64,000 bases of DNA from an uncultured Actinomycetota bacterium (GTDB lineage Bacteria; Actinomycetota; Actinomycetes; Mycobacteriales; Mycobacteriaceae), in contig CAVUSK010000012.1 in NCBI GenBank assembly GCA_963744085.1, positions 36,248-100,247 on the forward strand. Reading direction: 5' to 3'. Below are positions 21,828 through 39,644 of the stretch, one piece after another. The notes beneath the pieces were generated by a model. That model saw only the letters and a list, made by a program, of their open reading frames with translations, had not been told where the DNA came from and made no database searches. The stretch's first letter is position 1, and the number at the start of each line of letters is the position of its first letter. Made by a program: the position numbers and the translations under genes.

Positions 21828-22007
21828 ATGGAGGCATTCTTCAGGTACTCGAGCCGCAACAAGCTGGCGATTGAGGATCTCACCCGGACGCTTGAGGGCG
21901 CCCATGCGGGCTTTGGGCCGAATCATGCGGAGGGTTTCAGGCGGCCCGTCCTTCCCGTGCCGGACTCCGGTGGGCCGACACGGGCGCACGGCGCGTCGGC
22001 CCGATGA
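21828..22007 (+). pseudogene. 59-aa ORF resembling a collapsed TIR domain, coupled to the downstream gene
   Basis: RBS gaggag 7 nt before ATG; FFRYSSRNKLAIEDLTRTLE resembles TIR betaA-alphaA; RPVLPV resembles betaD; stop overlaps the next ATG (ATGA). Confidence 0.4.
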
Positions 22008-23776
22008 TCTCCCCAAGGTCCCTGGGACACCTCATCGCTGAATTCCGATGGGCTTTGCTCGGTGTGGCTACTATCATCGCGATTGCGCTTGGCTGGGTGG
22101 GATACACCGAGCACTTAAACGAGTTGTACGTCGAGGGAACACTTACGCATCCCCCTCAGGCGACCGACATCGCCTACGACACCTTCAAGCTATTCCTCCT
22201 GGGGTCGCCAGATAGGACCGGGCTACCGGTGACGATCGAGATTGCTCGCATCCTCGCGCCAATCGTGGCCGGTTGGGCCGCGCTGAGCGGGCTGGCTTTG
22301 CTGTTTCACGACCGCGTGCAACAGCTACGCATCCCGCTGATGCGGGGTCACGTCGTAGTCTGCGGGTTGGGCTACGTCGGCAGGGTGTTCCTTGACCACC
22401 TTCGACAGGCCGGCCGCCGGGTAGTCGTCATTGAGTCAGACCCCGCGAATCCGTCCCTAGAGCTATGCCGCAGTTGGAACGTCCCGGTCATAGTGGGCGA
22501 TGCAAGGCAAGATCGGACGCTGCGTGAGGCCGGGGTGCAGCGTGCGGCCCAACTCCTCGCGGTATGCCCGAACGACGCGGTGAACACCGAGATTGTTGCC
22601 ATCGCTCGGCGACTTCCGACCGGCCGCCGAAGCGGTGGGCTGCGATGTCTGGCTCGAATCGGTAACCCAGAGCTGTGCGCGTTGTTGCGGGTCCAAGAGG
22701 CCAACTATTCGGATGGTGCCTTATCGTCACTGGACTTCTTCAACCTTGACGAGCTCAGCGCGCGGTTGTGCCTCGACGAGTACCCGATCGAGGCCGAACG
22801 CGGCCAGCCGCACCTCCTCGTTAGTCGCTTTGATGGGCTGGCAACGTGGCTAGTGAAGCACGCAGCGTGGGGCTGGTATTCCGACCGCGCCGACGACACC
22901 CCACTATGGATCACGGTTGTCGACGACCTGGCCGCAGAGCGCGTTCGGGGGCTTCTCGACCAATACCCGGCACTTGAGCCGGTGTGTCAGTTCACTTACT
23001 CTTCGACACGCGTCCGTGATCTGCACCGACTCGAAGCGGTGTACGCCGACGCGGGAGCGCCACCGATAACGTGCGCCTATGTGAGCGCATACCGCGATGA
23101 AGACGCGATCGAGGCCGCGCTCGCGTTGCGCCATGAACTCGATTCGGCCGTCCCGATGGTCCTCGCGTTGTCGCGGGCGCAAGGGGTTGCCCGGCTCATC
23201 ACCGACGCTACTGCCAGCGGCGAGCTGACGAACGTTAACGTATTCCCGACGCTGGAGCGCACGTGCACGGCCGAGCTTGTCCTGGGCGGCTCGTTCGAAA
23301 GGATCGCAGTCGCCATCCACCGCCGCTGGTGCGCTGGGCAACTCGCCGCCGGCAAGGAGGCGCCGTCTTGGTCCGAGCTGGACGAGTCGCGCAAGGAGTC
23401 CAGCCGTGCTCAAGCTCGCGACATACCAGCCAAGTTGCGCAGCATCGGGTGCACCATCGCGCCTCTGCATGACATAAGCGCACCAGCGTTCGAATTCACC
23501 GACGACGAATTCGAGACACTCGCGATCGCCGAGCACAAACGTTGGGTAACCGAACGACTCAAGTCCGGCTGGCGGCTGGGGCCCAAAGACATTGAGCGGA
23601 AGACGTCGCCGTATCTGATTCCGTTCGAGGAGCTGCCGGGCGACATCGCCGACGCCGATCGCGACACGGTGCGTCAGATTCCCGATGCGCTCGCCTTACT
23701 CGATCTGAAAGTCATCCGGTCCGCCACGGGCTCGGCCCGCGTCGGGCAGCCGACGCTCGTCGGCGGTGACCGGTAG
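22004..23776 (+). CDS. Membrane protein: 2 TM + putative pore helix, RCK/TrkA_N nucleotide-binding domain, C-terminal RyR domain
   Basis: TM1 RWALLGVATIIAIALGWVGY; helix DIAYDTFKLFLLG; TM2; HVVVCGLGYVG and VIVGDAR; RyR-type AIHRRW, WSELDESRKESSR, LAIAEHKRW, GWRLG, SPYLIPFEEL. Confidence 0.85.
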   Translation: MISPRSLGHLIAEFRWALLGVATIIAIALGWVGYTEHLNELYVEGTLTHPPQATDIAYDTFKLFLLGSPDRTGLPVTIEIARILAPIVAGWAALSGLALLFHDRVQQLRIPLMRGHVVVCGLGYVGRVFLDHLRQAGRRVVVIESDPANPSLELCRSWNVPVIVGDARQDRTLREAGVQRAAQLLAVCPNDAVNTEIVAIARRLPTGRRSGGLRCLARIGNPELCALLRVQEANYSDGALSSLDFFNLDELSARLCLDEYPIEAERGQPHLLVSRFDGLATWLVKHAAWGWYSDRADDTPLWITVVDDLAAERVRGLLDQYPALEPVCQFTYSSTRVRDLHRLEAVYADAGAPPITCAYVSAYRDEDAIEAALALRHELDSAVPMVLALSRAQGVARLITDATASGELTNVNVFPTLERTCTAELVLGGSFERIAVAIHRRWCAGQLAAGKEAPSWSELDESRKESSRAQARDIPAKLRSIGCTIAPLHDISAPAFEFTDDEFETLAIAEHKRWVTERLKSGWRLGPKDIERKTSPYLIPFEELPGDIADADRDTVRQIPDALALLDLKVIRSATGSARVGQPTLVGGDR

Positions 23777-23822: not shown

Positions 23823-25440
23823 TCAACGGATCCAAGCCGGCGGCGCGAGCTTCAGATCCTCAACGAGCAGCGCTTCCACGGTCTGAAGCGCTCCCTCGAC
23901 CCAGCCTTGATCGGTAGACCAGGCTTCACCGATGATATGCAACGCTGTGCCCGGCAGCGGCGTCCGCACCGCGGGCATGATTTCCCAGCTCTTCACGCCC
24001 TGCTTCCATGTGTGCCAGCCAGACACGTACGGTTCGCCACCCCAGTTGATGAAGCCGGCGGACGAGATCGCCGGCGTGTCCTTCAGGTCGTGCACAGTGA
24101 CGATCTGGCGGACCAGCTCAGTGGCCATCGGTCCTTTCGGATCGAGCATGGTCAAGCCGGTGGCGTTTGGCTGCTCCATGTTGCGTAAACCGGACCAGAA
24201 GTCGATCGCCGGCTCGTCGAAATAGGCCATCGTTGTGGCTCCAGACGATCCGTTCAGGCGGCCCGGCTCCGTGCCGAAATAATAGAGCTGCCGTGCCGGC
24301 AGATCGGTCACCGCGCGGCCGCTTGACAGCCCGAGCGAGCGCCACCAAGGCTCGGTGTGCGCGACGAAAGCCTTCGCCAGCGGCCTAGCCGTGATTGTGG
24401 CCAACAAACCCGCCGTGGCGGGCGCCTTCAAGGCGGGGCAGTCGGGAATGCGATCGATCGCTTGCTGCGGCATTGCGAGGATCACGCGCCGACTTTTCAC
24501 GCTGCGATTCCCCTCCGCCGTTGCGAAGACGAGCTCATGAGAGCCACCGACTTCTGGCGCCACCCGGAGTGACTCGAGACGATGCCGTCGGTTCACTGCG
24601 GTGCCCTTGCGTTGCAGCGCGGCGGCAAGCTCGTCGGGAAGTGCTGACATTCCCTTGGCGAGAGTCTTGTACTCAGGGTTGTTCGCGAAGTCGGCGAGAA
24701 GCCACGGCAACGCCTCAGCCGCATTCCATTCGCGGGGAATAGAGCAGTAACCGCCACCGTCGTCGACCAGCATCACCGCCTCGTAGGACAGATAGCGGTT
24801 CAAGAATTCCCAGAAGCCCCGGTCGCTGAGGGGTAATCCGTCGAGCGTCAGTTGTCGCTTGACGGTGTTCCATTTTTCAAGCCCGAGCGTTTCTGCGTCG
24901 GGCACGAGATCGCGAATCGCTCTGACCATCAGCGCGGTCGGGTCGTCGCCGACCTCGTTGTTGTTGAGCGCGTAGGGAATTGCGCTCGGGCGCGCGTAGT
25001 CGGCTGTGGTGAAGCGCTTGCCTCGAAGGTAGACGAGATTTTCCGGGCCGCCCATCGGAAACGACCGAACACCGATGCCGAGATGTTGCACTAGCGAGGC
25101 GATGATCCGCTGGCTGGTGAGGAAGCGCATACCACCGAACTCCGCCACGAGGCCATTTGTGCCGGGCATGCTCACGCTCAAGAGCCGGCCTCCGATCCGA
25201 TCGGTCGCCTCGAAGACTGCGATCCGATCGGGCGGAACGTGCCGTCGGCCAGGCGCCAGGCTGCATAGAGTCCCGCGATGCCACCGCCGATCACTACAGT
25301 GTCGAGCGTCCCATCGCCTGGCTTTCGAACCCGCAGGCGGCGCCGGCGACGCCCAGCATTGCGACATTCGAGGCGGCCGCGCCGATAAAACGACGGCGGG
25401 TGAGGACGCGACTCGTGTCGCCAGCCTGCAGTTCGGCCAC
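23823..25440 (-). pseudogene. Tat-exported (probably lipoprotein) flavin amine/L-amino-acid oxidase with two N-terminal frameshifts
   Basis: RBS gaggaa + GTG at 25440; TRRRFIG twin-arginine motif and GAAC; second frame DTVVIGGGIAGLYAAWRL; main frame FEATDRIGGR, AEFGGMRF, IIGEAWSTDQGWVEGALQT. Confidence 0.8.
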
Positions 25441-25556
25441 GGTTGTTTTCCTCGATCGACGGCCCCGGTGATCATCATGACCGCGGCGCCGGTTTGGCGG
25501 GCCAAGTTGACTGCATCAAGCCGTACTTGCCAAACGCATCGCCCGGATCGCCCGCC

Positions 25557-28500
25557 CTAGTCGGGTGGGACTGGCAAATCGGGACAGACCTTGATGTAGT
25601 CGATGTCCGGCGACACCCACTCATCCCACTGCTTGTGGCTCATGTTCGCAGTGAGCTTGTCGCACAGATCTTTTGGACTTGCAACCGCCGGCCAGACCCG
25701 GACGGTACGGTCCGCGCTCCCCGAAACGATGCGCTGGCCATCGGGACTGTACGCAACACTATCGACGTCGTCGGTGTGCGCGGTCAACGCATCACCAGCC
25801 TGTTGGCCGGACTCGACGTCCCACAACCGGATGGTTTCGTCGCGACTCGCGGAAGCGATCGTGCGGCCGTCCGGGCTGAACGCCAGCCCAACGACCGTGT
25901 CCTCATGGCCTTTCAGTGGCTTGCCGATTTTTTCAAGCCCGGCCGCATCCAACACCTGAATGACACCGTCGGCGCCGGCGGCTGCGACGCGGCGTGAGTC
26001 GGGGCTGAAGGTTACGGCCCATACAACTACTTCCGCGTCGCCGATCGTGACTGCCCGTATCAATTGACCTGTGTTGGCGTCCCACAACCTCACACTGCCG
26101 TTGTTGGCGCCCTCCATGCCGCCAGAGACGATGCGGTTCCCGTCGGGACTGAACGCAACACTGTGTACCAATTCGCCGTGGATCAGCGGCGCACCAATGG
26201 GAGTGCCCCTTTCGACATCCCACAACCGGACGGTGTTTCCACCGCCGATTACCAGACGGCGTCCATCGGGGCTGAACGCCACACTGGTCAGTGGCCCCTG
26301 CCCGGGACTGATCGGTGCACCAAGGGGCGTGCCGGTGTTCGCGTCCCATATCCGGACGGTGCCATCGGCGCCAGCGGTGGCGAGACGCCGTCCGTGCGGG
26401 CTGAAAACGACGCTGGACAGCGGCTGGCCGCTGCCCATGAGCGGCTTGCCAATCGGGTGGCCGTTGTCTGCGTTCCACAAGCGCGCAGTGCCGCCATCAC
26501 CCGCCGAAGCGATGCGATGCCCGTCAGGGCTCACCGCCACACTCGACACTCCTCCGATGTGGCCAAAGAGAGGCCGACGTATGCCGACATCCCACAACCG
26601 GATCATCCCGTCCTGCGATCCCGACAGTAGGCGGGTTCCGTCGGGACTGAACGACAACGTCCACACCGCGCTCTTGTGGCCCAGCATGGGGGGACCGAGC
26701 ATCTGTCTGGTGTCGACATCCCACAGCCGCACCGCGCCGTCACCACTTCCGTCAGCAAGCCGGTGGCTGTCGGGGCTGAACGCCACGCTGAGCACCTGGG
26801 TTCCGTGACCGGCCAGGGGCTCGCCGATCGGCTGGCCAGTTTCGGCGTCCCACAGCTGCACGTCCCCGTCGCCACTCGCCGAGGCGAATTGGCGGCCATC
26901 GGGGCTGAACGCCACGTCGAACACGTCGACCACTTCGCCCTCGTGAACCCTGTGCGGAGGACCGATCTGCTGGCCGGTGCTGACGTCCCACAAGCGCACC
27001 GTCCCGTCGGAGCTGCCACTGACGAGGCGCCGTCCGTCGGGGCTGAATTCCACGGTGTGGACCCTGCCGGGATGTCTCAGTGGTTGGCCGATGGGTTGGC
27101 CGGTGTTGGCGTTCCACAGCCGCACAGTGGTGTCGATGCTGCCGGAGGCGATCATGAGCCCGTCCGGGCTGAACGCCACCGCCCACACCTCGTCTTGATG
27201 GCCTGTCATCGGCGGGCCGATCGGGTCTCCGGTGTCCGCGTTCCAGAGCCGTACGGTGCGATCGTCACTTACGGATGCGATCCGGTGCCCGTCGGGACTG
27301 AACACCGCGTCGTTAACCCAATCAGCATGTCCGATCATGTCGTGGCCGACTTGTTGGCCGGTCTCAGTGTCCCACAAGCGCAACCGTCCATCATCGCCTC
27401 CAGTGACGAAGCGGCGACCTTGAGGGCTGAAGACGGTAGCAGGGCTGAAGACGGCACCGAAGATCGCCCTCGACGTGTCGATGAGCTTGAGGGTGTTGAA
27501 GGTCCTGACCGCGACGGAGTACAGATCTTGCTCAAAAGTCCTCGGAGAGAGTGCGTTCGCGGCAAGTAATTCCTGCAAGGCCCTGGCATCACTGCCCGGC
27601 CTACTGCTATCCAAGATGCCGTTCGACTCGGAGACCAGCCGCACGCTCGTCGCCTGACGGAACCGTTCTTGCGCCTGACCACGAGCGCTCATCGCGAAGC
27701 CGAATCCAACCACGGCGGCCACAGCGACTACCGCTGTAATTGCAAGAACAGTACGCATAATCCGCGATCGCTTGCGCAAGTCGGTCGCATGCGCTTCGGC
27801 AACTGCTTGCCGTTCTTGCGCATTGCGTAATTCGGCATCCCGACGTTCTTCTTCCGCCTTTGCCCGCTCGTTCTCGCATTGTCGAGACGCGTCGAGGTAT
27901 TCGCGAACAGGATTCATACGTTGGGTGAAAGTGGTTGAGCCCACAACATTTTCGGCATCGGCAAGACGGGAACCAGTGAGGAGCCACGCCGGGTCTTTGC
28001 TGTTGCTTCTCCACGCCGCGTCGGCACGCTCGACGTCATCGGCCACCTGGAGTTCATGGCGTTGCTCGCGAAGCCAGTCTGCCACCTCATCCCACTGGCG
28101 CAGCAGGCTTTCCAGGGCGACCTCGACCACTACTTGGCCGTCGCGCTGGTCCTTAATCAACAGCCGCTTGGCGACCATTGCGTCGATCAACGGTCTACTT
28201 TCCTCGGGTAGGTCGTCATACCGGGCCATCCGACGCATCGGCTGGTCATTATCCGGGTTCACTGTGGCGAGCCAGGGAATGAAAGCCGCCCGCAGACAGT
28301 CAAGTTGGTGGCGCCGTTGGTCCGGATCGGTCGCAAGAACCTCATTGATCTCCGTCTCGACGACACGGCGCATTCCACCCATCGCCTCGTACTGCTCGAC
28401 GGTCAACTCACCCGTCGAGCCGTAGTCGGTGTACAGTCGTGCCAGCGTCAACGACAGCATCGGCAGTGTGTCGGCACCCTCGGCGGCGTCAACGAGAAGC

Positions 28501-29771
28501 CGCTCCACCAAGTCTGGTGAAATTGCGAGGCGGTGGCCACCTTCGCTCGCACGAGCCGCCGGGCCCGTAATCACCTCCTTGAACTGCGTCGAGGGCATTG
28601 GCTTGAGGTCATCGAAAACTCTTGCCTCCACACCAGCCAGTTCGGGATGTGTCTGCATGACCTCATACCGGTCAGTCCGAATGGTGGCCACCACGATCAG
28701 GTTCAGCGGTTGGAGGTCGATTCGTGCCGTCAGCAATCGAATCAGCGACAACAGTTCCGTCCCTTGGGCTCCCGCGTCAGCGGAGAACAATTCCTCGGCT
28801 TGGTCCAAGGGCAGTATCAACGTCGGAGGGGCCGGTTTTTCATCATCGCGAACCGGATCCGGTAACCGATCCGCCGCTGTCTTCTGGATTTCGATCAGCA
28901 ACTCGCGCAGCCGCGCGATGTCGCCCTTGCATGCGGTCTTGATTTCGCCGAGGCTTGGTGCTGATAGGCCCAGCCTGTCTCGAGCATGCCAAATGGCCGC
29001 TGCCAGGCCGACATCCCCCGTGAGCGCGTTGCGACCGGGCCGGACGATGCCCAACAATGCGAAACGTCGATCTTCGCGGGCCAGGCGCGGCAGGATACCC
29101 GCGCGAAGAAACGACGACTTACCTGTGCCCGACGGACCCAACACGACGAACAGCGACTTCGTTTCAGCCAGCCTCATGCCGCGTAGCTCATCCAGCCCGT
29201 GCACGATTGCCGCATCCCGGCCAAAGAACACGGCGGCATCGACCTGTTCGAATGGCTCCCAGCCGCGATATGGAGCCCGACCCAGGTCGCCCGGCGGCGG
29301 CCATGCGAACGAATGCGCGCTGATGCCGGTCCCGCGAATGGCGTCTCGTAACCGGTACAAGCCAGCGGTGGCAAACATCACCGGTGGTCCGCTGGGCAGA
29401 TCGATCGAGGTCATGTCACCCTCGCCGAACAGGTCGCACCGCTGCCACTCCGACGTCAAGTCATCCCCGGCCGAACGTTCGAGGCGGGCACACAAAATCT
29501 GCTTGTTCAGATTCTCCGCAACGCGGTATTCGGTCTTGCACTCATGGGACATTTCCCAATTCCTTGACAGGAGGCAGACCACGACTTCACATTTGGCACT
29601 CGCCTGCTGCAGTCTGTCCTTCCATCGCTCTCCCGGTCGGAGCCCCACTTCAGGATCGATGTCGAGGAATATCTCAGTCGCCAGCGGAGGCTCCTGTTCG
29701 ACCAGCCAGCGTTTTAAGGCCAACGCCTCGCGCTCGTCGAGACTCGAATGGCTGAGGAAAATTCGCGACAT
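25557..29771 (-). CDS. TIR - STAND NTPase (nSTAND1-like) - TM helix - 14 WD40 repeats
   Basis: TIR IFLSHSS...IFLD...VVVCLLSRNW...CKTEY; Walker A VVLGPSGTGKSSFLRAG; Walker B LILPLDQAEELF; LPMLSLTLARLY; VEVALESLLRQW; TM VLAITAVVAVAAVVGFGF; 14 SPDG...LW repeats. Confidence 0.93.
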   Translation of the reverse strand: MSRIFLSHSSLDEREALALKRWLVEQEPPLATEIFLDIDPEVGLRPGERWKDRLQQASAKCEVVVCLLSRNWEMSHECKTEYRVAENLNKQILCARLERSAGDDLTSEWQRCDLFGEGDMTSIDLPSGPPVMFATAGLYRLRDAIRGTGISAHSFAWPPPGDLGRAPYRGWEPFEQVDAAVFFGRDAAIVHGLDELRGMRLAETKSLFVVLGPSGTGKSSFLRAGILPRLAREDRRFALLGIVRPGRNALTGDVGLAAAIWHARDRLGLSAPSLGEIKTACKGDIARLRELLIEIQKTAADRLPDPVRDDEKPAPPTLILPLDQAEELFSADAGAQGTELLSLIRLLTARIDLQPLNLIVVATIRTDRYEVMQTHPELAGVEARVFDDLKPMPSTQFKEVITGPAARASEGGHRLAISPDLVERLLVDAAEGADTLPMLSLTLARLYTDYGSTGELTVEQYEAMGGMRRVVETEINEVLATDPDQRRHQLDCLRAAFIPWLATVNPDNDQPMRRMARYDDLPEESRPLIDAMVAKRLLIKDQRDGQVVVEVALESLLRQWDEVADWLREQRHELQVADDVERADAAWRSNSKDPAWLLTGSRLADAENVVGSTTFTQRMNPVREYLDASRQCENERAKAEEERRDAELRNAQERQAVAEAHATDLRKRSRIMRTVLAITAVVAVAAVVGFGFAMSARGQAQERFRQATSVRLVSESNGILDSSRPGSDARALQELLAANALSPRTFEQDLYSVAVRTFNTLKLIDTSRAIFGAVFSPATVFSPQGRRFVTGGDDGRLRLWDTETGQQVGHDMIGHADWVNDAVFSPDGHRIASVSDDRTVRLWNADTGDPIGPPMTGHQDEVWAVAFSPDGLMIASGSIDTTVRLWNANTGQPIGQPLRHPGRVHTVEFSPDGRRLVSGSSDGTVRLWDVSTGQQIGPPHRVHEGEVVDVFDVAFSPDGRQFASASGDGDVQLWDAETGQPIGEPLAGHGTQVLSVAFSPDSHRLADGSGDGAVRLWDVDTRQMLGPPMLGHKSAVWTLSFSPDGTRLLSGSQDGMIRLWDVGIRRPLFGHIGGVSSVAVSPDGHRIASAGDGGTARLWNADNGHPIGKPLMGSGQPLSSVVFSPHGRRLATAGADGTVRIWDANTGTPLGAPISPGQGPLTSVAFSPDGRRLVIGGGNTVRLWDVERGTPIGAPLIHGELVHSVAFSPDGNRIVSGGMEGANNGSVRLWDANTGQLIRAVTIGDAEVVVWAVTFSPDSRRVAAAGADGVIQVLDAAGLEKIGKPLKGHEDTVVGLAFSPDGRTIASASRDETIRLWDVESGQQAGDALTAHTDDVDSVAYSPDGQRIVSGSADRTVRVWPAVASPKDLCDKLTANMSHKQWDEWVSPDIDYIKVCPDLPVPPD
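25680..27460 (-). repeat. 14 WD40 coding repeats (double beta-propeller)
   Basis: 14 recurrences of [FVY]SP[DQH][GS]...[LIV]W-type units, also visible as DNA repeats (gggctgaacgcc, tcccacaa). Confidence 0.9.
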
Positions 29772-30221: not shown

Positions 30222-31192
30222 ATGTTTCTAAAGGTGAAGGTACCGCCGGATCTAATCGGCGGAGGCGTCGATGAGGGTTTCGGGAAAGTGGCCGACGTCT
30301 TCCGTCGGAATCTGAGCAGCGGTCGGGAGATCGGAGCCGCTGTCGCCGTCTACGTTCACCGCCGCTGACACTCGACGACTTGGCCAACCCGATGCGGATG
30401 TCTGCGAAGCTCGCGGCGCAGCGCCCCGCTTAGGCTCCTGGGACGAGACACGGCTACCACGCGATCACGATCGGCTGGTACGAAAGTGAACTGATCCGCC
30501 GAACCGACTCGGCAGGAAGGTCACTCGGCCAGTTCTTCGCCGACGAGGTAGCCGAGCCACTCGGTTTGGATTTCTACATCGGGTTGCCCGCGTTGGTGGA
30601 CCGCAACCACCTCGCGTACGTCCACGGCATCTCCCTACCGGAGATGGTGTTGCACCTCAATACGTTGCCGCCACGTTTTGCGTTCAGCGTGCTGAGCCCT
30701 CGCAGCCTGTCGGCGCGATCATTCGCCGTTCCCGGTCTGCGCTCCTCCGCCGAAGAGGTTAACCGTGAAGCAGTACAGGCAGTTGAAATGCCCGGCTTCA
30801 ACGGCATGGGTAACGCAAGGGCGGTGGCCAAGCTGTATGGCTCAGTAGCGATAGGTGGCTCCGAACTTGGGATGACCGCCGCAACTCTCGACGCTCTCAT
30901 GATGCCCGCTACGCCGCCAACGGACGGCGTGCGCGACAAGGTATTGCATACCGACACGATCTACCCGCTTGGCTTCGTAAAGCCTTTCCCGAACTGGGTC
31001 TTCGGTTCCTCACAGAAGGCGTTCGGCACCTGTGGCACGGGAGGCTCGTTCGGCTTCGCCGATCCGCATACCGGTATCGGTTTCGCCTACGTGATGAACA
31101 GAATGGGCTTTCACATGTGGAGCGACCCACGCGAACTCGCGCTTCGCCACACCCTCTTTCACGACATCCTCGGCGCGAGACCGCAGAAGTAA
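30222..31192 (+). pseudogene. Serine hydrolase (beta-lactamase-family esterase) with internal deletion and stops
   Basis: GGVDEGFGKVADVFRRNL...IGAAVAVY, then a jump past the SxxK region; GYHAITIGWY; C-terminal AFGTCGTGGSFGFADP...FAYVMN. Confidence 0.8.
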
Positions 31193-34004: not shown

Positions 34005-35323
34005 TGAACCGCCCCGGCATGTCCGGAGACTCTGGTGTGTCCCGGGTTGCACGCAGTCGGTTTGCTTGATTCTTGGTCACGACGTCCGTCGAAGGAGCCG
34101 TGTCCGTGCCGAAGCGTTATCCCGAGGAGTTCCGCCGCAAAGTGCTCGATCTGGTGGCCGCTGGCCGCCCTATCGCGCAGATCGCTGCCGATCTGGGCAT
34201 CAGTGACCAGACTATCTACGGCTGGCGCAAACAAGAACTGATCGACACCGGACAGTTGCCCGGTCTTAACCGTGCCGAACAGGCTGAGCTGGCCGCGGCC
34301 AACAAACGCATCCGCGAGCTGGAAACCGAGGTGGCGATCCTGAAAAGGGCCCGTGAGCTGCTGAGGGAGCCACACGACCCAAAAGACGGTACGCGGCCAT
34401 AGCCACGATGGCCGCAGAAGGACTGCCCGTGCAGATGGCGTGCCGACTGCTGTCGGTGGCCGAATCGGGCTACTACGAGTGGCGCCGCCGGCCACCGTCG
34501 GCCCGGGCGGTTCGCCACGCCTGGCTGACCGAGCAGATCCGGGCCGTGCACACCGCCTCACGCGGCACCTACGGCGTCCGCCGGGTGCATGCCGAGCTGA
34601 CCCTCGGACTGGGGCTACAGGTCGGCCACAACCAGGTCGAGCTGCTGATGACACGCGCAGCGATCAAAGGCCTTCCGGGCAACCGCCGTCCTCGGCCGCG
34701 CAATGAGACGCCGACCGCGTCGGATCTGGTCGAGCGGATGTTCACCCGCGAGGCACCAAATCGTTTGTGGGTCACCGACATCACCGAACACCGCACCTAC
34801 GAAGGCAAGGTGTATTGCGCGGTCGTGCTCGATACCTTCTCCCGCCGCGTTGTCGGCTGGTCGATCGACTCGAGCCAGACCGCCGCGCTGGTCACCAATG
34901 CGCTGAGTATGGCCATCGCCAACCGTGATCCGCAGGCCGGTGGGATCATCCACTCCGACCACGGCGTGCAATTCACCTCCTGGGCCTTCACCGACCGCGC
35001 AATACGCTCCGGTCTGGTGCCCTCGATGGGGTCAATTGGCGACTGCTACGACAACGCGATGATCGAATCCTTCTGGGGAAGAATGCAAACCGAGCTACTT
35101 AACCGAAAACGGTGGAGGACACGGATTGAGCTGGCCAATGCGATCTTCGATTACCTGGAGATCTTCCACAACCGTCAACGGCGTCATTCCGCCCTAGGGA
35201 TGCGCACTCCGATAGAGTTCGAATTGCTACACCAATCCACCCAACCCGTGGCCTGAAACCAAGTATGGCGACACCGCCGAACCGGGGATACATCAAAGTC
35301 TCCGGACTCACCGGGGCGGTTCA
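34005..35323 (+). mobile_element. Apparently intact IS3-family element with IS6110-type terminal inverted repeats
   Basis: IRL tgaaccgccccggcatgtccggagactc; IRR ...gtctccggactcaccggggcggttca; orfA 34106-34402 and orfB to 35256 (WVTDITE, HSDHGVQF, DNAMIESFW); -1 overlap at cccaaaag; no target duplication. Confidence 0.93.
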
Positions 35324-36990
35324 CCGCCGCCATCTGATGCGGACACCCTGGGCTTGACCCCGTTTGGTGGACACAGGGTCAGGCGGCTTGTGCCGTCTGA
35401 TTGAGTTGGTCTTCGAAGTCGACCGGGCTGATCATACCGAGGGCAGAATGGCGTCGGCGCCTGTTATAGACCCGTTCGATCCAGTCGCCAACGGCGAGCT
35501 TGGCGGCTGACTTGGTCGGCCATAAGTAGCGGTCGTAGAACTCGACTTTCAGTGTGGCCCAAAATGATTCGGCTGCAGCGTTGTCCCAACACACCGCGGT
35601 ACGGCCGACTGAGCGCACCAGGTTATGGTCGCGGGCGAACCGCGCCAGCTGGGCCGAGGTGTACTGGCAGCCGCGGTCGGCGTGCAGGATCACCTCGCCG
35701 CCCAGCTCGCCGCGCATCGCCACGGCCATTGCCACCGCGGAGGTGACCAGGTCGGTGCCCATGGCATCGTCGATGGCCCAGCCGATCACCCGCCGTGAGC
35801 AGCCATCGCGCACCGCGCACAGGTACAGCCAGCCCGCCCCAGTGCGCAGGTAGGTGATGTCTGAGGTCCACACCCGATTCAGCTCGCCGGTGTCGAAACG
35901 ACGCCCCACCAGGTCTTTGGGCACCGCAGCATCCAGGTCGACTACGGTGGTCGCCGGCACAAACGTGCGAGGGCTGATCCCGGCCAGCCTCTGGCGGCGC
36001 AGTGACGCTGCCACCGTCTTACGCGACACCGTCTCGCCGTCGGCACGCAGATCGGCCAGGATGCGTGGCGCCCGTACACGCCGTCGGACGCCTGGTGGAA
36101 TGCGGCGACCTTGGCGTCCAACTCCGCGCGCCGCACCGCCGTCGGACTCGGGCCCGACACGCAGGCTTTGCGCCACTTGTAGTATCCCGACCGCGAAACT
36201 TCCAGCAGTTCGCACATCCGCTTGATCGTGTAGGTAGCCTTCTCCGCCTCGATCACCCGGTAGGCCTCTACCGGTTCTGTTCGGAGACGAAGAAGGCCGC
36301 GGCTTTTTTCAGAAACGCACGGTCCAAACGTAATTCGGCGTTCTCGCGGCGCAGACGCTCCAGCTCCGCGCGTTCATCGGCATCAAGCACTCGGGCAGTA
36401 TCGCCAGCGTCGGCCGCTTCCCGTTGAAGGCGCACCCAACGACCCAGCACTTGTTCACCAACGCCGATCTCGGCCGCGACATGAGCCACCGGTCGGCCGG
36501 TCTCGATCACCAGGCGGGCAGCCTGCTCCCGGAACTCCGGGGTGTACTTCCTACGCTTGCCCGACATATGGACAACCTTCCCGCAGGACCAGCGGTCCCA
36601 CCAGTCAGGTGTCCACCATCAGGGGTCAACCCCAACCCATGCGGACGCGACGAGCGGTCCTCAAGATTGAGCACCGCCCCATCACGGGCATAACGACGTA
36701 GCCACGCATGCACCGTCTGACGCGACACCCCATAGCGGCGGGCCACATCACTAATCACGGCCCCATCCAGGACCTCCAACACCGCCCGATAACGCATCTC
36801 GGACACACGCAGCTCCCGCAACATGCCGGCCCCTTCCGCCGTCCACCAACGACTACGAAAGAACCCACACCCACCAACGGGTGTAAAGCACCTACCGGAA
36901 CTGTTGTCGCGGACCTACCGGAACCGCGTCCAGGAACCGTAAAGCAGCAACCGGACCTCAAACGTCAAGCATCAACCGGAACCGCACACA
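35324..36990 (-). mobile_element. IS481-family remnant interrupted by an IS3 element and truncated by the IS6110-like element
   Basis: MLRELRVSEMRYRAVLEVLDG...LEDRSSRPHG (36824-36635) continues as CPHQMAA at 35348-35324; iterated accgga end motifs to 36990. Confidence 0.8.
35349..36634 (-). mobile_element. IS3-family element with 4-bp target duplication ACCC; orfB has a 1-bp frameshift near 36072
   Basis: IRs tgggcttgaccccgtttggtggacac / gtgtccaccatcaggggtcaacccca; accc at 35345-35348 and 36635-36638; orfA 36268-36567; orfB WTSDITY, HADRGCQY, DNAAAESFW. Confidence 0.92.
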
Positions 36991-37093
36991 AAGCGCTTGT
37001 GGACGCGGTGTGGACGTAGAGCCGGTTTCGCGGGCCGTGGCGCCCGGGCGCCGGACTGGCAAAATAGCCCTCTAGCTGCATCTTTGTGTTGTG

Positions 37094-37133
37094 GGGCGGG
37101 CGGGACTCGAACCCGCGACCAACGGATTATGAG
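37094..37133. repeat. att-like direct repeat of the tRNA(CAT) 3' half
   Basis: 40-bp exact match to 39647-39686, ending just past the anticodon. Confidence 0.95.
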
Positions 37134-37408
37134 AACGATGGTCGCTGTTGCTGACGGCCCAACTAGAGCCGTTGTAATGACCCTTGTGGGCAAGATTTCT
37201 GCTCTAATCATGTTGTGCCAGAACCGATTACAACAAAAGCCGATTCCTATAACCACTGTAGTAAGACAAAAGCCCAGGTTGCCAGGTCACGGCGCTAGTG
37301 TTGGTGTGAGCGGGTTTGCTGGCTAGATGCGTTCGCTTCCAGACCCAAACTAGACGCAGTGAAATAATCGGACGGCCAACCACCCATCGCTAGGAGCAGC
37401 CACAGACG

Positions 37409-38014
37409 ATGACGAAAGCAACCAGGCGACCCAAAACCCAAGAACTATGTAGCGCAGTTGTTTCTGTGATCCTGCTAGTGAGTCTCGTTGGCACAGCTTG
37501 CAGCACTAGCACCACCGGCAGTAAACAGACACAGGCCACAACAACCCATGTATTCAGCGCGCCAATAATTCCGCAGTCGCCTACACCAAACTTCAAGATT
37601 GTTGGGAAGCGTTACGTGCGTAAGGACAACGCGCCTGGCTACTACGTTGTGATCGACCCGGTGGATTTGAGCAATGACAGCTTTAAGCAAAACGTGAAGC
37701 TGGTACTTCAGGCACTTGCGAAAACCAATGGCGGGCCGAACTTCACGGCATGGGTTCTCGATGACGAAGCCGTTGCTAACACCAAATATTCCTACGACAC
37801 AAACCCGGGAGCCGATACAGTAGACAAGATGAAAGCACAACAAGCAGCAGAAGAACAGCACCTAATCGCTGGGTACACAGGTGGCTGGGACACTACCTAC
37901 GCTCACTCCAGCACCGCAGATGATGCGTACACGATTAGTTGGTTTCCAGCCGCGATCATTGATAGCCCGAACGTGGGCCAGTATGTCAAATTTGGCGAGC
38001 AATTTAAGCCCTAG
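37409..38014 (+). CDS. Hypothetical lipoprotein (island cargo)
   Basis: Signal peptide ending LVGTAC, Thr-rich linker; AT-richer than the core. Confidence 0.7.
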   Translation: MTKATRRPKTQELCSAVVSVILLVSLVGTACSTSTTGSKQTQATTTHVFSAPIIPQSPTPNFKIVGKRYVRKDNAPGYYVVIDPVDLSNDSFKQNVKLVLQALAKTNGGPNFTAWVLDDEAVANTKYSYDTNPGADTVDKMKAQQAAEEQHLIAGYTGGWDTTYAHSSTADDAYTISWFPAAIIDSPNVGQYVKFGEQFKP

Positions 38015-38158
38015 CGTCAACCGCTGCTAGCCGCTGGCACGCTCTATTGGCACTACTTGAGCCGCAGACCGCTTAGAACGCGCCCTGGTGGTCAGTATCG
38101 ACTCGCCGCAACTAGGTGAGATCCACCAAGGCGGGGGTGGGATCAGGATACAGCGTAT

Positions 38159-38870
38159 TTAGCCGCTGGCCTTTTGTAGTGGCACTACTTTGTTGTCCGG
38201 CTTTTGTGCTTGTGGACGGGCCAGCGGTGCAGCTTTACCGCCCTCAGCGGTGGTGATGTAATCGCCGTAAGTATTGAGCGTCAGAACAAACGTGGAGTGT
38301 CCCAGCATCTTTGAAACCTGCATAAAATGCTCCCCCGCGCTCAGACTCATTACTGCGAAGCTGTGCCGTAAATCGTGCCAACGCGCACGCGGTAGGTTCA
38401 ACGCTTCTAATGCTGGCCGGAAGTAACGCAACGTGACGTTTCTAGCGTCGATAGGTTGCGTGTAATCAAACAGGTTGGCCCGATCTTTGACGTTGTGACC
38501 TAGTTCTTTTGCGCGCTGCATCGTCAGCCTGCCCGGAAACAACGGCGCGTTAGATTCTTGCTTGCGTGGGTGCGTTTGGAGGTAGTCGCGTAGATCGTCA
38601 GCAAGCCACGCATCTAACGGAACCGTCCGTATGGACTGCTCTGTCTTGGGTGTGTCTGTCACCCACTGACCGTTCTTGCGCTCTTTGGTCCGTTGTACGT
38701 GGATTGCTCCTACCGTGCCTGCGTGATTACTGAGGGTTAAATCTTGGACCTCTAGCCCCTGAAGCTCCGCGAGCCGCACGCCGGTAAACGCGGAAAATTT
38801 CACCGCCAGGGCGTAGATGTGGTTGTGCTGGGCGTGTTCTATGTGGTCTGCGACGGCTGCGATTTGTTGA
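38159..38870 (-). pseudogene. Tyrosine integrase, catalytic domain only (N-terminus lost)
   Basis: FTGVRLAELQGL (Arg I), TPKT, WHDLRHSFA (HxxR), MLGHS and TYGDY (Tyr); the frame is closed by a stop upstream. Confidence 0.88.
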
Positions 38871-38938
38871 AAATCGCTCTTATTACCGCTGCGATCACAA
38901 TTCCGATTAAATACGCCCAGATAATCACGCGCTCAAGT

Positions 38939-38967
38939 TTACGCCGGTTACGCCGGTTACGCCGGTT
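38939..38967. repeat. 9-bp tandem repeat (ttacgccgg) x3
   Basis: Seen directly; encodes NRRNRRNRR on the minus strand before a TM-like segment. Confidence 0.8.
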
Positions 38968-39077
38968 GGGGCTAGAAGTGGTTCTAGTTGGTCGGCTTGA
39001 GCGGCTCTGCGTCCATAGGACCACTGCTCAAGACGGCTCTACGGGCCTCTGAGGGCTTGCTTTGACGGCTGTGCTGG

Positions 39078-39488
39078 TCACTCGTCAGAGTCAACGTCGG
39101 TTACTTCTATGTCATCTGCACTGTCTACTTTGATTTTCTTGATGGGTTTATTGTCCGGCCCGTAGATCGTGATTATTTTCGGGCGTTCCGTTCCTTCGTC
39201 TTTTTCCCGTTTACGTTTGAATCGGTTGTTGGCCCAAGTGATCGCAGCAGCTTCCAAAGAAGTGACAACGCCACCTATCGTTGCGTCTGCGGCTTGCAAA
39301 GCGATATAGAGGCCGATCGTTTCGTAAAGGGTGATTCCCCTACCCGTTGGCGGCCTGTAGGTTATTTGGCCGTCACTGCCACCTTCGCGTATTTCGTCTA
39401 TCAGTTCTTCTAACCCCGATAAGAATGGATTGAGTCTAAAAGTACCGCCGATCCTAACCGTAATTATTGCTGCTGCTTGTCCTCCCAT
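39078..39488 (-). CDS. Hypothetical protein (island cargo)
   Basis: 136-aa ORF, AT-richer DNA, next to the tRNA 3' end. Confidence 0.6.
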   Translation of the reverse strand: MGGQAAAIITVRIGGTFRLNPFLSGLEELIDEIREGGSDGQITYRPPTGRGITLYETIGLYIALQAADATIGGVVTSLEAAAITWANNRFKRKREKDEGTERPKIITIYGPDNKPIKKIKVDSADDIEVTDVDSDE

Positions 39489-39644
39489 GCGACCAGGCTA
39501 GTCGAGCTAGCCGCGCTGTGGCGTTTGCTAGTTCCCGTGTGTCTGCGCTGGTGTTGGTGCCGTGTTGGTGTGAGCGCCCAAAACCGCCCAAAGTAGCAGC
39601 GGCCAGCAAACCACGAAATTAGCCCTACCAGCATTTTTAACTTG

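What the first reader, a model, noticed from the sequence alone, without database searches (positions are those of the whole stretch)
25557..29771. Toll-like/NLR hybrid topology: TM helix between STAND and a 14-blade double propeller
Seen: a strongly hydrophobic helix (27690-27758) preceded by basic residues (RKRSR) separates TIR-STAND from exactly 14 WD40 repeats; the tail carries a Cys pair (DLCDK...KVCP); the TIR retains a Glu in CKTEY at the expected catalytic position; Walker A and B are intact. Established: Apaf-1-type STANDs use tandem propellers as sensors, normally in the cytosol. Inference: here the sensor faces the periplasm (positive-inside rule, possible disulfide), so it could detect envelope-level cues such as phage injection machinery or neighbour contact.
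Basis: partly seen in the sequence, partly recalled or inferred. Interest (0 to 1): 0.7.

Follow-up and report, generated by a model that had tools for sequence, protein, structure and literature searches.

The report
Membrane-spanning TIR-STAND sensor with RyR partner
A mycobacterial gene encodes an immune-type switch protein whose NAD-cleaving and ATPase parts lie inside the cell while its 14-bladed sensor most likely lies outside the membrane, and it travels with (and in relatives is fused to) a membrane protein carrying a ryanodine-receptor-type domain recently shown to bind the signal molecules such enzymes make.

Summary
Window 25557-29771 (-) encodes a 1404-aa protein: TIR (invariant Glu81), nSTAND1 NTPase (intact Walker A/B), helical stalk, one strongly hydrophobic helix (aa 672-694) after RKRSR, 14 WD40 blades, and a tail with two Cys.

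The helix is a family trait, present in 98 of 121 close homologues and 86 of 112 50%-identity representatives.

An outward-facing sensor is supported indirectly:
- More K/R on the N-side of the helix.
- The WD40 region of helix-bearing members is nearly Cys-free (0.12% against 0.77% in helix-less members).
- Related TIR proteins carry CHASE2 or PknH_C after the same kind of helix.

The Cys pair is not diagnostic, because helix-less members keep it.

New here: a 2-TM/TrkA_N(RCK)/RyR-domain gene (22004-23776, +) is a conserved neighbour. It lies beside 14 of 27 TIR-STAND loci, and 13 of 21 long RyR-gene loci carry a TIR-family sensor gene. In a diverged subfamily it is fused as TIR-nSTAND1-TrkA_N-RyR. 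Two 2026 preprints show that phage RyR domains bind or cleave TIR-made cADPR isomers.

Best reading: a Thoeris-like, outside-in TIR signalling pair. Topology, enzymology and phenotype are untested. It is a new variant of known kinds.

The parts
25557..29771 (-). Whole ORF, 1404 aa plus stop: TIR-nSTAND1-stalk-TM-WD40x14-tail
   Evidence: N-terminus MSRIFLSHS matches the family consensus start
29421..29762 (-). TIR_2 domain (aa 4-117); putative catalytic Glu81 codon at 29529-29531
   Evidence: Pfam TIR_2 E 2.6e-12; E81 invariant; aligns to the Glu of SpbK TIR
27990..29273 (-). nSTAND1 NTPase module (aa 167-594); Walker A 29115-29138, Walker B 28791-28820
   Evidence: PF20703 229.9 bits against cut-off 27.1; motifs; AF2 model pLDDT 87 with Foldseek hits to Cdc6/Orc1, RPP1 and Apaf-1
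27759..27926 (-). Long helical stalk (aa 616-671) ending in the basic motif RKRSR (27762-27776)
   Evidence: AF2: helix 616-699 continuous in the N-half model; helix 613-667, then a low-confidence break at 668-675, in the C-half model
27690..27758 (-). Predicted transmembrane helix (aa 672-694)
   Evidence: KD 2.55; conserved in 98/121 and 86/112 relatives; cleanly deleted in a minority of relatives
27492..27689 (-). Juxtamembrane helix continuing from the TM to about aa 720, plus a two-helix cap (aa 695-760), with conserved RFR[EQ]A and GGD.RA.QQ.LAA motifs
   Evidence: AF2 secondary structure; conserved in helix-bearing and helix-less relatives
26589..27491 (-). WD40 blades 1-7 (aa 761-1061), first propeller
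25689..26588 (-). WD40 blades 8-14 (aa 1062-1361), second propeller
25560..25688 (-). Conserved 43-aa tail LCxKLTxNMSHxQWxxWVSPDIxYxxxCPxLP with C1370 and C1396; no Pfam family
   Evidence: (both Cys invariant in 34 sequences)
22004..23776 (+). Partner gene, 590 aa. Two N-terminal hydrophobic helices (about 22049-22105 and 22229-22306) flank a pore-helix-like stretch without GYG. Then TrkA_N/RCK Rossmann domain (22352-22702, GLGYVG) and a tandem RyR Repeat12-like domain (23291-23710, HxxW at H439/W442 and H511/W514, D552-R553).
   Evidence: Pfam; family alignment A4; PDB profile hits to RyR R12 at E 2e-21 and TrkA at E 2.6e-10; hydropathy and motifs; conserved adjacency and fusion
23823..25505 (-). 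Intervening flavin amine-oxidase gene, 52 bp downstream of the TIR-STAND stop on the same strand. It is not a conserved part of the pair.
   Evidence: Pfam; present only in the window, L003 and L004 among close orthologous loci

Best explanation
The window carries a two-gene, membrane-embedded TIR signalling module of Mycobacteriaceae.

Gene 1 (25557-29771, -) is a single-pass, N-in/C-out receptor. The cytoplasmic part holds a TIR domain with the catalytic-type Glu81, an nSTAND1 NTPase switch, and a long helical stalk. The stalk runs into the membrane helix (aa 672-694). Outside lie a small helical cap, two seven-bladed WD40 propellers and a Cys-pair tail.

The helix separates sensor from NTPase, so the propellers cannot clamp the NTPase as they do in Apaf-1. 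Activation is therefore inferred to be outside-in. Ligand binding or clustering of the ectodomains would bring stalks and NTPase modules together. NTP-dependent oligomerisation would then juxtapose TIR domains and switch on NAD+ cleavage or cyclisation.

Gene 2 (22004-23776, +) is a two-helix membrane protein with an RCK/TrkA_N nucleotide-binding domain and a RyR Repeat12-type domain. It is inferred to read the TIR product (a cADPR-type molecule, or the NAD+ level) and to turn it into a membrane or ion-flux response. This is the logic of Thoeris.

Shown: domain content, conservation of the helix, conserved linkage of the two genes, and their fusion in a subfamily. Inferred: topology, ligand-induced clustering, the TIR product, binding of that product by the RyR domain, the effector role of gene 2, and an anti-phage role.
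For: Architecture and motifs. AF2 models have pLDDT 87. Foldseek matches the C-half to 2ymu and Apaf-1, and the N-half to Cdc6/Orc1, the TIR-NLR RPP1 and Apaf-1.

Helix conservation and charge bias.

Cys exclusion: the WD40 region has 0.12% Cys in helix-bearing members (63% have none, n=106), 0.77% in helix-less members (n=12), and about 0.9-1.0% in the cytoplasmic half. Mann-Whitney p = 4.7e-5.

Exchangeable extracytoplasmic domains after the helix: CHASE2 in P0064, PknH_C in TIR-TM-PknH_C, and TIR-TM-linker-WD40-tail without a NOD.

The WD40 region is the most variable part among orthologues: 45% variable sites against 28% in the NOD and 18% in TIR.

Partner linkage:
- A RyR-domain membrane protein lies beside 14 of 27 TIR-nSTAND1 loci. 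It comes in two subfamilies only about 27% identical and in convergent, divergent and co-directional arrangements.
- Reciprocally, 13 of 21 metagenome loci of at least 8 kb anchored on TrkA_N-RyR carry a TIR-family sensor gene. This includes remote RyR relatives L080 and L081.
- Genome look-ups gave TIR neighbours in L029/L030/L093, L031 and L094, but not in L092.
- A fusion subfamily TIR-nSTAND1-TrkA_N-RyR has four clusters: one identical to the L067 query and three 60-63% identical to it.

RyR-domain biochemistry: PF02026 proteins of phages bind or cleave 2'cADPR, 3'cADPR and cADPR through an HxxW-containing pocket (PMC13232231; 10.64898/2026.06.04.730250). HxxW and D-R are invariant in the partner family.

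The Nocardia homologue has a SLATT gene 124 bp upstream. SLATT is the cADPR-activated effector of type VII Thoeris (10.64898/2025.12.03.692087).
Against: No experiment bears on topology, TIR activity or phenotype.

The two genes are convergent and separated by an unrelated gene in the window, so they are not an operon.

Ten to twenty percent of relatives lack the helix yet keep the same linker, propellers and Cys-pair tail. The module therefore also works in the cytoplasm, and the Cys pair says nothing about export.

Exporting about 710 aa of fast-folding propeller is demanding, and the basic motif is not a canonical twin-arginine signal.

In the fusion proteins TrkA_N-RyR sits in the slot that STAND proteins normally use for the sensor, and those proteins have no membrane helices. 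This fits a regulator or sensor role at least as well as an effector role.

The His that contacts phosphates in phage RyR proteins is Ser/Thr here (alignment). The partner has no K+ selectivity filter.

PADLOC recognises neither gene as part of a known system. The only hits are the WD40 part against HEAT-ARM_XIII and a weak ThsB hit at E 0.006.

The statistics on related sequences are not phylogenetically corrected.
Confidence: 0.55

Rival explanations
1. Self-contained abortive-infection STAND. The TIR is simply an NAD+-depleting executioner, as assumed for TIR-Avs and TIR-bNACHT proteins. The RyR-domain neighbour is either unrelated or a safety device that mops up or hydrolyses stray TIR products, as the phage enzyme RyDEP does.
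For: The effector-NOD-sensor layout is typical of one-protein STAND defences. The genes are convergent and not in an operon. Ten of 23 informative TIR-nSTAND1 loci lack a RyR neighbour. The partner keeps His and Asp at the positions of the RyDEP catalytic dyad.
Against: The fusion subfamily and the reciprocal enrichment argue against 'unrelated'. Small TIR-TM-PknH_C proteins without a NOD keep the same partner. That fits TIR-product signalling better than bulk depletion.
Confidence: 0.25
2. The TrkA_N-RyR membrane protein is an upstream sensor or co-receptor rather than the output. It would report ion flux, membrane potential or nucleotide status, for example the K+ leak at phage genome injection, to the TIR proteins. 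The WD40 ectodomain would be a second input or an anchor.
For: In the fusion subfamily TrkA_N-RyR occupies the C-terminal sensor slot of the STAND. RCK domains are ligand sensors of ion-transport proteins (PDB hits to TrkA, KefC and Kch). RyR R12 is described as an ADP/ATP sensor (PMC12627627 and PMC13642953; abstracts seen).
Against: RyR-fold proteins tested so far bind exactly the TIR products. Nocardia replaces the partner with a SLATT effector.
Confidence: 0.2
3. The system is not antiviral. It would be an envelope-stress, developmental cell-death or neighbour-recognition receptor of soil mycobacteria that uses NAD+ signalling.
For: The gene is chromosomal and syntenic among related species. 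It is absent from viral contigs. Its neighbours here are metabolic genes. nSTAND1 systems were described as enriched in multicellular or social bacteria (PMC8195603; PMC7159879).
Against: Defence-type neighbours occur at other loci: a type I restriction-modification R subunit, HipA, patatin and PIN. A mycobacteriophage encodes a RyR-fold enzyme that destroys TIR signals, which implies that such signalling matters during infection of this host genus.
Confidence: 0.15
4. The hydrophobic segment does not span the membrane. It would be peripheral or buried, and the propellers would stay in the cytoplasm as in Apaf-1.
For: Helix-less relatives use the same linker, propellers and tail. No topology predictor or experiment was available.
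Against: The segment has 21-25 uncharged residues with KD 2.2-3.4 across the family. AF2 models a long helix. Cys is depleted only in helix-bearing members. Sister proteins carry CHASE2 or PknH_C after the same kind of helix.
Confidence: 0.07

Closest known systems
nSTAND1 STAND NTPases of bacterial conflict systems (Pfam PF20703; named in Kaur et al. 2021, PMC8195603)
   Same: Strong Pfam match, Walker A/B, and the N-terminal effector (TIR) - NOD - C-terminal repeat sensor layout. NCBI already names relatives 'nSTAND1 domain-containing NTPase'.
   Different: The papers I could search do not describe a conserved membrane helix between the NOD and the WD40 sensor, nor a RyR-domain partner.
Apaf-1 (tandem WD40 propellers on a STAND ATPase)
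   Same: Tandem propellers C-terminal to a STAND NOD. Foldseek matches full-length Apaf-1 with both halves (E 5.8e-43 and 2.8e-4).
   Different: Apaf-1 is soluble, its NOD is NB-ARC, and its propellers contact the NOD directly. Here a membrane helix intervenes, the NOD is nSTAND1, and the effector is TIR rather than CARD.
Animal Toll-like receptors
   Same: Repeat ectodomain, one membrane helix and a cytoplasmic TIR. Activation by ectodomain-driven clustering is the likely shared logic. The NOD-less relatives TIR-TM-WD40 and TIR-TM-PknH_C are even closer in plan.
   Different: Orientation is reversed (N-in, C-out). The ectodomain is WD40, not LRR. An NTPase switch is inserted. The TIR keeps the catalytic-type Glu. 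There is no evidence of common descent of the whole architecture.
Thoeris systems (ThsB TIR plus effector; 29 predicted types, types I-XI named; 10.64898/2025.12.03.692087)
   Same: A TIR gene is linked to a gene whose product carries a domain that binds TIR-made ADPR derivatives and membrane helices. The Nocardia homologue sits beside SLATT, the type VII effector.
   Different: The TIR is part of a 1404-aa membrane STAND receptor rather than a small ThsB. The genes are not in an operon. The main text of that survey has no mention of RyR or TrkA, and it excluded Avs-type and non-operonic TIRs. PADLOC gives no Thoeris call.
Phage RyR-domain anti-Thoeris proteins RyDEP and RyR Tad (PMC13232231; 10.64898/2026.06.04.730250)
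   Same: Same Pfam family (PF02026) and conserved HxxW and Asp ligand residues. RyDEP comes from a mycobacteriophage, so its host genus is the one that carries these loci.
   Different: The phage proteins are small soluble dimers that sequester or cleave the signal. The window protein is host-encoded, has two repeats in one chain, and is joined to RCK and membrane helices. A His of the phage pocket is Ser/Thr here.
RCK-gated two-helix K+ channels and Trk/Kef regulators (MthK/Kch, TrkA, KefC)
   Same: Two N-terminal helices followed by an RCK/TrkA_N Rossmann domain with GxGxxG. Some relatives are named 'potassium channel family protein'.
   Different: There is no TVGYG selectivity filter. The C-terminal RyR domain is extra. 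Channel activity is only conjecture.
Single-pass Ser/Thr kinases with predicted periplasmic WD40 or TPR arrays (Planctomycetota, PMC11032199), and bacterial NACHT proteins with TM-type C-terminal regions (10.1101/2022.07.19.500537)
   Same: Precedent for a cytoplasmic enzyme, one helix and an outside WD40 array, and for the idea that some bacterial NLR-like proteins read periplasmic signals.
   Different: The enzyme modules differ (kinase or NACHT). None was linked to TIR or RyR, and none was tested for topology.

Membership tests
nSTAND1 STAND NTPase (PF20703) | Match to the family model above its curated cut-off | tested here: met
   229.9 bits against cut-off 27.1, aa 167-594 covering profile positions 1-378 of 379
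nSTAND1 STAND NTPase (PF20703) | Intact P-loop (Walker A GxxxxGK[ST]) and Walker B acidic residues | tested here: met
   GPSGTGKS 212-219; LILPLDQAEE 318-327. G215, G217, K218, S219, D323, Q324, E326 and E327 are invariant in 66 sequences.
nSTAND1 STAND NTPase (PF20703) | AAA+/STAND fold with helical and winged-helix arm; effector-NOD-sensor order | tested here: met
   AF2 pLDDT 87.1. Foldseek hits Cdc6/Orc1 at 2.8e-8, TIR-NLR RPP1 at 5.3e-7 and Apaf-1 at 2.8e-4. No sequence-level relative in the PDB.
nSTAND1 STAND NTPase (PF20703) | NTP-dependent oligomerisation on ligand binding | not testable with these tools
   Needs biochemistry or cryo-EM
Enzymatic TIR domains (NADase/cyclase) | TIR fold or family match | tested here: met
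   TIR_2 E 2.6e-12, 47.7 bits against cut-off 28. The N-half model aligns over TIR plus NOD with RPP1.
Enzymatic TIR domains (NADase/cyclase) | Conserved catalytic Glu after the '[WY]C' motif | tested here: met
   E81 is invariant. It aligns with the Glu of CLNEM in SpbK 9phb, a weak profile hit at E 0.023. That this is the catalytic position rests on my knowledge of TIR enzymes.
Enzymatic TIR domains (NADase/cyclase) | NAD+ cleavage or cyclisation activity | not testable with these tools
   Needs an assay
Toll-like receptor architecture | Ectodomain - single membrane helix - cytoplasmic TIR | tested here: inconclusive
   One conserved hydrophobic span, charge bias, Cys exclusion and sister ectodomains point that way. 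No topology experiment or dedicated predictor was available.
Toll-like receptor architecture | LRR ectodomain at the N-terminus (type I orientation) | tested here: not met
   The ectodomain is WD40 and C-terminal; the TIR is N-terminal
Apaf-1 / NB-ARC-WD40 apoptosome type | NB-ARC NOD and sensor propellers in the same compartment as the NOD | tested here: not met
   The NOD is nSTAND1 by Pfam, and no NB-ARC family appears among the 25 best Pfam rows shown. A hydrophobic span separates NOD and propellers.
Apaf-1 / NB-ARC-WD40 apoptosome type | Tandem beta-propellers C-terminal to the NOD | tested here: met
   14 blades. Foldseek hits 2ymu at 3.5e-57 and Apaf-1 3sfz at 5.8e-43.
Thoeris-type TIR signalling system | TIR gene genetically linked to a gene with a signal-binding domain plus an effector or membrane part | tested here: met
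   Adjacent in 14 of 27 TIR-STAND loci and in 13 of 21 long RyR-anchored loci; fused in four clusters
Thoeris-type TIR signalling system | Partner domain binds a TIR-made ADPR derivative | tested here: inconclusive
   Same Pfam family and HxxW/D-R residues as phage proteins shown to bind 2'/3'cADPR and cADPR. One pocket His is not conserved. No binding data exist.
Thoeris-type TIR signalling system | Recognised by defence-system models; operon organisation | tested here: not met
   PADLOC gives ThsB only at E 0.006 for gene 1 and nothing for gene 2. The genes are convergent with an intervening gene.
Thoeris-type TIR signalling system | Infection-triggered signal production and phage restriction | not testable with these tools
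   Needs infection assays and LC-MS
Avs/AVAST and bNACHT antiviral STANDs | Match to the family's defence models | tested here: not met
   No Avs or NACHT model among the PADLOC hits; Pfam assigns nSTAND1

The most novel reading that the evidence does not exclude
Host-encoded RyR Repeat12-type domains are the native receptors for TIR-made cADPR-type signals in a bacterial immune pathway. In this pathway danger is perceived outside the cytoplasmic membrane by exchangeable ectodomains (WD40, PknH_C, CHASE2). The output is a two-helix RCK/RyR membrane protein that alters ion flux. This would be a prokaryotic TIR -> cADPR -> 'RyR-domain channel' axis. It would also be the source from which mycobacteriophages took their RyR-fold sponges and glycosidases, and it would bear on the long-disputed cADPR-ryanodine receptor link in animals.
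Probability: 0.3. Interest if true: 0.9.

Novelty: new variant of a known kind. Interest (0 to 1): 0.75.

Why it matters
Known bacterial STAND/NLR-like defences and Thoeris TIR sensors are thought to detect phage components in the cytoplasm. A widespread family would be different if its NTPase switch and TIR enzyme are wired through the membrane to a large ectodomain. That would be outside-in innate sensing, able to act before or during genome entry, and it would be a mechanistic bridge between Toll-like and NOD-like receptor logic.

The conserved pairing, and occasional fusion, with an RCK/RyR-domain membrane protein gives a directly testable hypothesis for the cellular function of bacterial RyR domains. 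Phage RyR-fold proteins have just been shown to bind TIR products. The pairing also offers an experimentally tractable prokaryotic model for nucleotide control of RyR-type domains.

Tried and rejected
- Sequence searches of the TIR region and of the NOD-to-linker region against the PDB gave only chance-level hits. A family profile was needed to reach TIR structures, and then only weakly.
- PADLOC did not classify either gene.
- NCBIfam gave only sub-threshold propeller and FxsC-TIR hits.
- A first literature search for bacterial RyR/TrkA returned nothing useful.
- A tblastn search of the partner's RyR domain against phage genomes gave only weak hits (E at best 2e-4), none in a mycobacteriophage. 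No direct alignment to RyDEP could therefore be made.
- The window's own partner protein is not on record in the contig index, so the source organism could not be named.
- Viral-contig scans found no TIR-nSTAND1 relative and one remote RyR relative, which I did not follow.
- I considered the tail Cys pair as evidence of export and rejected it, because helix-less members keep it.
- I considered the basic motif as an internal twin-arginine signal and rejected it, because it does not fit the consensus. This rests on my own knowledge of that consensus.
- I considered that the RyR gene merely flanks a defence hotspot and rejected it. The surrounding genes differ from locus to locus while the pair stays together, and fusions exist.
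- The L092 neighbour turned out to be a low-complexity repeat protein, not a TIR.

Full report
**Observation**

Window 25557-29771 on the minus strand is one uninterrupted 1404-codon ORF. Pfam places TIR_2 at aa 4-117 (E 2.6e-12). It places nSTAND1 at aa 167-594 (229.9 bits against a cut-off of 27.1) and WD40 repeats from about aa 780 to 1365 (E 2e-130).

The most hydrophobic 19-residue window of the protein has a Kyte-Doolittle mean of 2.55; the next best is 1.46. It falls in aa 672-694, which is exactly nt 27690-27758, and RKRSR (aa 666-670) precedes it.

Splitting the C-terminal region at the '[LV]R[LV]WD' ends gives 14 repeats at aa 761-1361, followed by a 43-residue tail. The protein has eight Cys up to residue 632. 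It has none across the next 737 residues, which include the helix, the linker and all 14 blades. Then come C1370 and C1396.

Walker A (GPSGTGKS, 212-219) and Walker B (LILPLDQAEE, 318-327) are intact, and their key residues are invariant in 66 relatives. Glu81 of HECKTEY is invariant. A family profile aligns it with the Glu of 'CLNEM' in the solved SpbK TIR (a weak hit).

**Structure models**

AlphaFold2 on family alignments gave confident models for both halves: pLDDT 87.4 for aa 600-1404 and 87.1 for aa 1-700.

The N-half model shows TIR, a P-loop NOD with helical and winged-helix parts, and one helix running from aa 616 to 699, that is, stalk and hydrophobic span as a single rod. The C-half model breaks that rod with low confidence at the RKRSR motif. 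It then shows a helix at 676-720, two short cap helices, blades with pLDDT above 90, and two short tail helices.

Foldseek matches the C-half best to the 14-bladed Nostoc propeller 2ymu (E 3.5e-57) and next to full-length Apaf-1 (E 5.8e-43). It matches the N-half to Cdc6/Orc1 (2.8e-8), to the plant TIR-NLR RPP1 (5.3e-7) and to Apaf-1 (2.8e-4). No sequence-level relative of the TIR or NOD is in the PDB.

**The family**

A search with aa 1-772 found 1,224 proteins at E <= 1e-5 among the 8,000 candidates scored. Those that carry names are mostly from Mycobacterium/Mycolicibacterium, Nocardia and Arthrobacter. Named members are called 'TIR domain-containing protein' or 'nSTAND1 domain-containing NTPase'.

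The NOD alone matches 29,794 representative clusters at E <= 1e-3. The closest genome loci are Mycobacterium sp. B14F4 and soil MAGs at 86-89% identity. The window is chromosomal, with DnaG, MMPL and metabolic genes.

nSTAND1 was named by Kaur et al. 2021 (PMC8195603). I found no description there or in the companion 2020 paper of a membrane helix between NOD and WD40.

**Is the helix real, and which way does it face?**

*Conservation.* A segment of 20-37 uncharged residues (mean 22) with KD of at least 2.0 lies about 460 residues after Walker A. It is present in 98 of 121 sequences and in 86 of 112 representatives of 50%-identity clusters. A conserved LRKRSRILR motif precedes it.

*Charge bias.* K+R in the 15 flanking residues average 4.6 on the N side against 3.3 on the C side. 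Net charge is +3.4 against +1.4. The N side is richer in 78 of 98 sequences and poorer in 4.

*Helix-less relatives.* A minority of relatives (P0048, P0089, P0092, P0099, P0107, P0113) lack exactly the basic motif, the helix and a few residues after it. They keep the stalk, linker, propellers and tail. They serve as natural controls.

*Cys exclusion.* Cys makes up 0.12% of the WD40 region in helix-bearing members (63% have none; n=106). It makes up 0.77% in helix-less members (n=12) and about 0.9-1.0% in the cytoplasmic half of either group. Mann-Whitney p is 4.7e-5, not corrected for relatedness. That is the pattern expected if the propellers of helix-bearing members sit in an oxidising compartment.

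*The Cys pair.* The tail Cys pair is invariant in both groups. It cannot be used as evidence of export.

*Sister architectures.* P0064 has CHASE2 with its usual extra helices after the same span. TIR proteins tied to the same partner gene carry PknH_C after a basic-motif-plus-helix, or the same linker-WD40-tail directly after TIR and a helix with no NOD.

*Cofactors.* TIR and the NTPase need cytoplasmic NAD+ and ATP.

Taken together, I consider N-in/C-out the most likely topology. It remains an inference, and the export route for about 710 residues of propeller is unexplained.

**Sensor variability**

Orthologues keep the 14-blade length of 1404-1406 aa. They differ most in the WD40 region, at 72-84% identity against 84-91% for TIR and NOD. 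Variable sites are 45% in WD40, 28% in the NOD and 18% in TIR. The variation falls at the non-consensus positions of the repeat.

**The partner gene**

Beside the gene lies 22004-23776 (+), convergent with it and separated from it by an amine-oxidase gene. It encodes a 590-aa protein with TrkA_N and RyR Pfam domains. Its parts are:
- two N-terminal hydrophobic helices around a pore-helix-like stretch that lacks GYG;
- a GLGYVG Rossmann motif;
- two RyR half-repeats, each with an invariant HxxW.

A family profile hits ryanodine-receptor Repeat12 domains (E 2e-21 to 1e-11), the Bacteroides 'putative ryanodine receptor', and TrkA, KefC and Kch RCK domains (E 2.6e-10 and weaker).

**Linkage of the two genes**

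*From the TIR-STAND side.* The same gene lies beside the TIR-nSTAND1 gene in L001-L004 and L006-L008. A second subfamily has about 800 aa, adds PGDYG, and is only about 27% identical. It lies beside more distant TIR-nSTAND1 genes in L011-L013, L017, L018, L021 and L026. Its arrangement varies from convergent to divergent to co-directional, and in L018 the gap is only 5 bp. That makes 14 of 27 loci, four of which have flanks too short to judge.

*From the partner side.* Starting from the partner instead, 58-59% identical members in M. paraffinicum and two other genomes lie 15-16 bp from, or divergent to, a 501-aa TIR-TM-PknH_C gene. In Mycobacterium sp. OAE908 the partner is followed by a TIR-TM-WD40-tail gene and a CHASE2-TIR gene. 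One genome locus (L092) had no TIR.

*Metagenome loci.* In a metagenome scan anchored on the partner, 13 of the 21 loci of at least 8 kb carry a TIR-family sensor gene. In L033 only its WD40 part lies within the contig. The 13 include loci whose RyR protein is only 32-42% identical to the query.

*Chance expectation.* I assumed a few TIR or RyR genes per roughly 6-Mb genome, which I did not measure. On that assumption chance adjacency within 10 kb should be near 1%.

*Fusion.* L067 encodes a 1134-aa protein with TIR_2, nSTAND1, TrkA_N and RyR in one chain, joined just where the partner's second helix would end. Four clusters share this architecture over 100% of the query length: one identical to the L067 query and three 60-63% identical to it. 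The fusion is therefore conserved and not an assembly artefact.

I regard functional coupling of the two genes as well supported.

**What the coupling means**

Two 2026 preprints show that phage PF02026 proteins bind TIR-made nucleotides. [quoted passage not shown] Ligand contacts come from H75, W78, H100 and D117 (PMC13232231). RyR Tad binds 3'cADPR at 43 nM, and also 2'cADPR and cADPR, through H129/W132 among other residues (10.64898/2026.06.04.730250).

The HxxW and Asp-Arg positions are invariant in the window's partner family. The second His is Ser/Thr.

The systematic Thoeris survey lists 29 effector types, including SLATT activated by cADPR. It does not mention RyR or TrkA in its main text, and it excluded Avs-type and non-operonic TIRs (10.64898/2025.12.03.692087). 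The Nocardia homologue of the window's protein has a SLATT gene 124 bp upstream.

The simplest reading is a Thoeris-like pair. A membrane TIR receptor makes an NAD-derived signal, and a membrane RCK/RyR protein reads it.

The fusion proteins lack membrane helices and put RCK-RyR in the STAND's sensor slot. A regulator or sensor role, or co-assembly with the membrane partner's RCK ring, is therefore equally conceivable. I keep that as a rival explanation.

**Comparison with known systems**

The protein is a member of the nSTAND1 STAND family and of the TIR_2 family, with defining features tested and met.

It works like, but is not a member of, two other groups. Toll-like receptors differ in orientation and ectodomain and lack an NTPase. 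Apaf-1 has a different NOD, and its sensor sits in the same compartment as the NOD.

PADLOC does not classify it as Avs, bNACHT or Thoeris. Predicted periplasmic WD40 arrays after one helix are known for planctomycete kinases (PMC11032199). The idea that some bacterial NLR-like proteins read periplasmic signals has been stated for NACHT proteins with TM regions.

What appears new is threefold:
- the conserved NOD-helix-propeller plan of this large family;
- the modular set of TIR receptors with extracytoplasmic-type domains;
- their linkage to host RyR-domain proteins.

**Verdict**

The topological interpretation is supported by comparative evidence but unproven, and the disulfide argument does not hold. 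The gene is best understood as one half of a TIR/RyR-domain pair. Everything about activity, ligand and phenotype remains to be tested.

Noticed in passing
window 23823-25505 (-): A flavin amine-oxidase gene starts 52 bp after the TIR-STAND stop on the same strand and separates it from the RyR-domain gene. Among close orthologous loci it is present only in L003 and L004, so it looks like an insertion into the pair.
   Followed up: partly
window 34408-36215 and 36000-40000: Two IS3-type transposase ORFs (rve/HTH_21) lie at 34408-35256 (+) and 35379-36215 (-). A truncated phage-integrase ORF lies at 38159-38803 (-). G+C dips to 0.56-0.59 against about 0.63 elsewhere. This is a mobile-element scar about 5 kb from the gene.
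   Followed up: partly
window 30566-31192 (+); L026 11085-12236: A 208-aa ORF matches only the C-terminal half of the Beta-lactamase fold profile, so it is a truncated gene, and it lies upstream of the TIR-STAND gene. In Mycobacterium sp. OAE908 a full-length 383-aa Beta-lactamase-fold gene lies directly downstream of the homologue.
   Followed up: no
P0001, P0002; L004 1778-5998 and 5890-10272; L005: Some relatives are tandem duplications. These are either two TIR-nSTAND1 units in one roughly 1290-aa protein with no WD40, or two full paralogous genes side by side.
   Followed up: partly
L023 11501-12385; L024 11776-13188; L025 10945-11226; C-termini of P0042, P0076, P0082, P0084, P0085, P0094: In many homologues the 3' WD40 part is split into an extra overlapping ORF or ends in frameshift-like sequence. 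This could be assembly error in GC-rich repeats, gene decay, or variation within the repeat array.
   Followed up: no
L023 6933-7877 (Nocardia xishanensis): A SLATT/DUF4231 two-helix protein is encoded 124 bp upstream of the TIR-nSTAND1-TM-WD40 homologue on the same strand. It stands in place of the RyR-domain partner seen in mycobacteria.
   Followed up: partly
L066 3946-7278; L062 4847-7906: Other STAND types occur near TrkA_N-RyR genes: a TIR-NB-ARC-TPR protein, and a DUF4062-AAA_16/22 protein about 2 kb away. The RyR link may extend beyond nSTAND1.
   Followed up: no
L011 11340-13733, L021 3434-5848, L026 4534-6879: The second partner subfamily (about 800 aa) has several N-terminal hydrophobic segments and a weakly TrkA_N-like region. 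It also has RyR repeats and a C-terminal PGDYG domain of unknown function.
   Followed up: partly
L095 984-2462 (IMG/VR contig): This is the only relative of the TrkA_N-RyR family on a viral contig (22% identity over aa 117-558). I did not examine it.
   Followed up: no
L025, L028, L031 flanks: Defence or toxin-type neighbours occur at some homologous loci. They are a type I restriction-modification R subunit and a DUF222-HNH protein (L025), HipA and patatin (L028), and a PIN toxin pair (L031).
   Followed up: no
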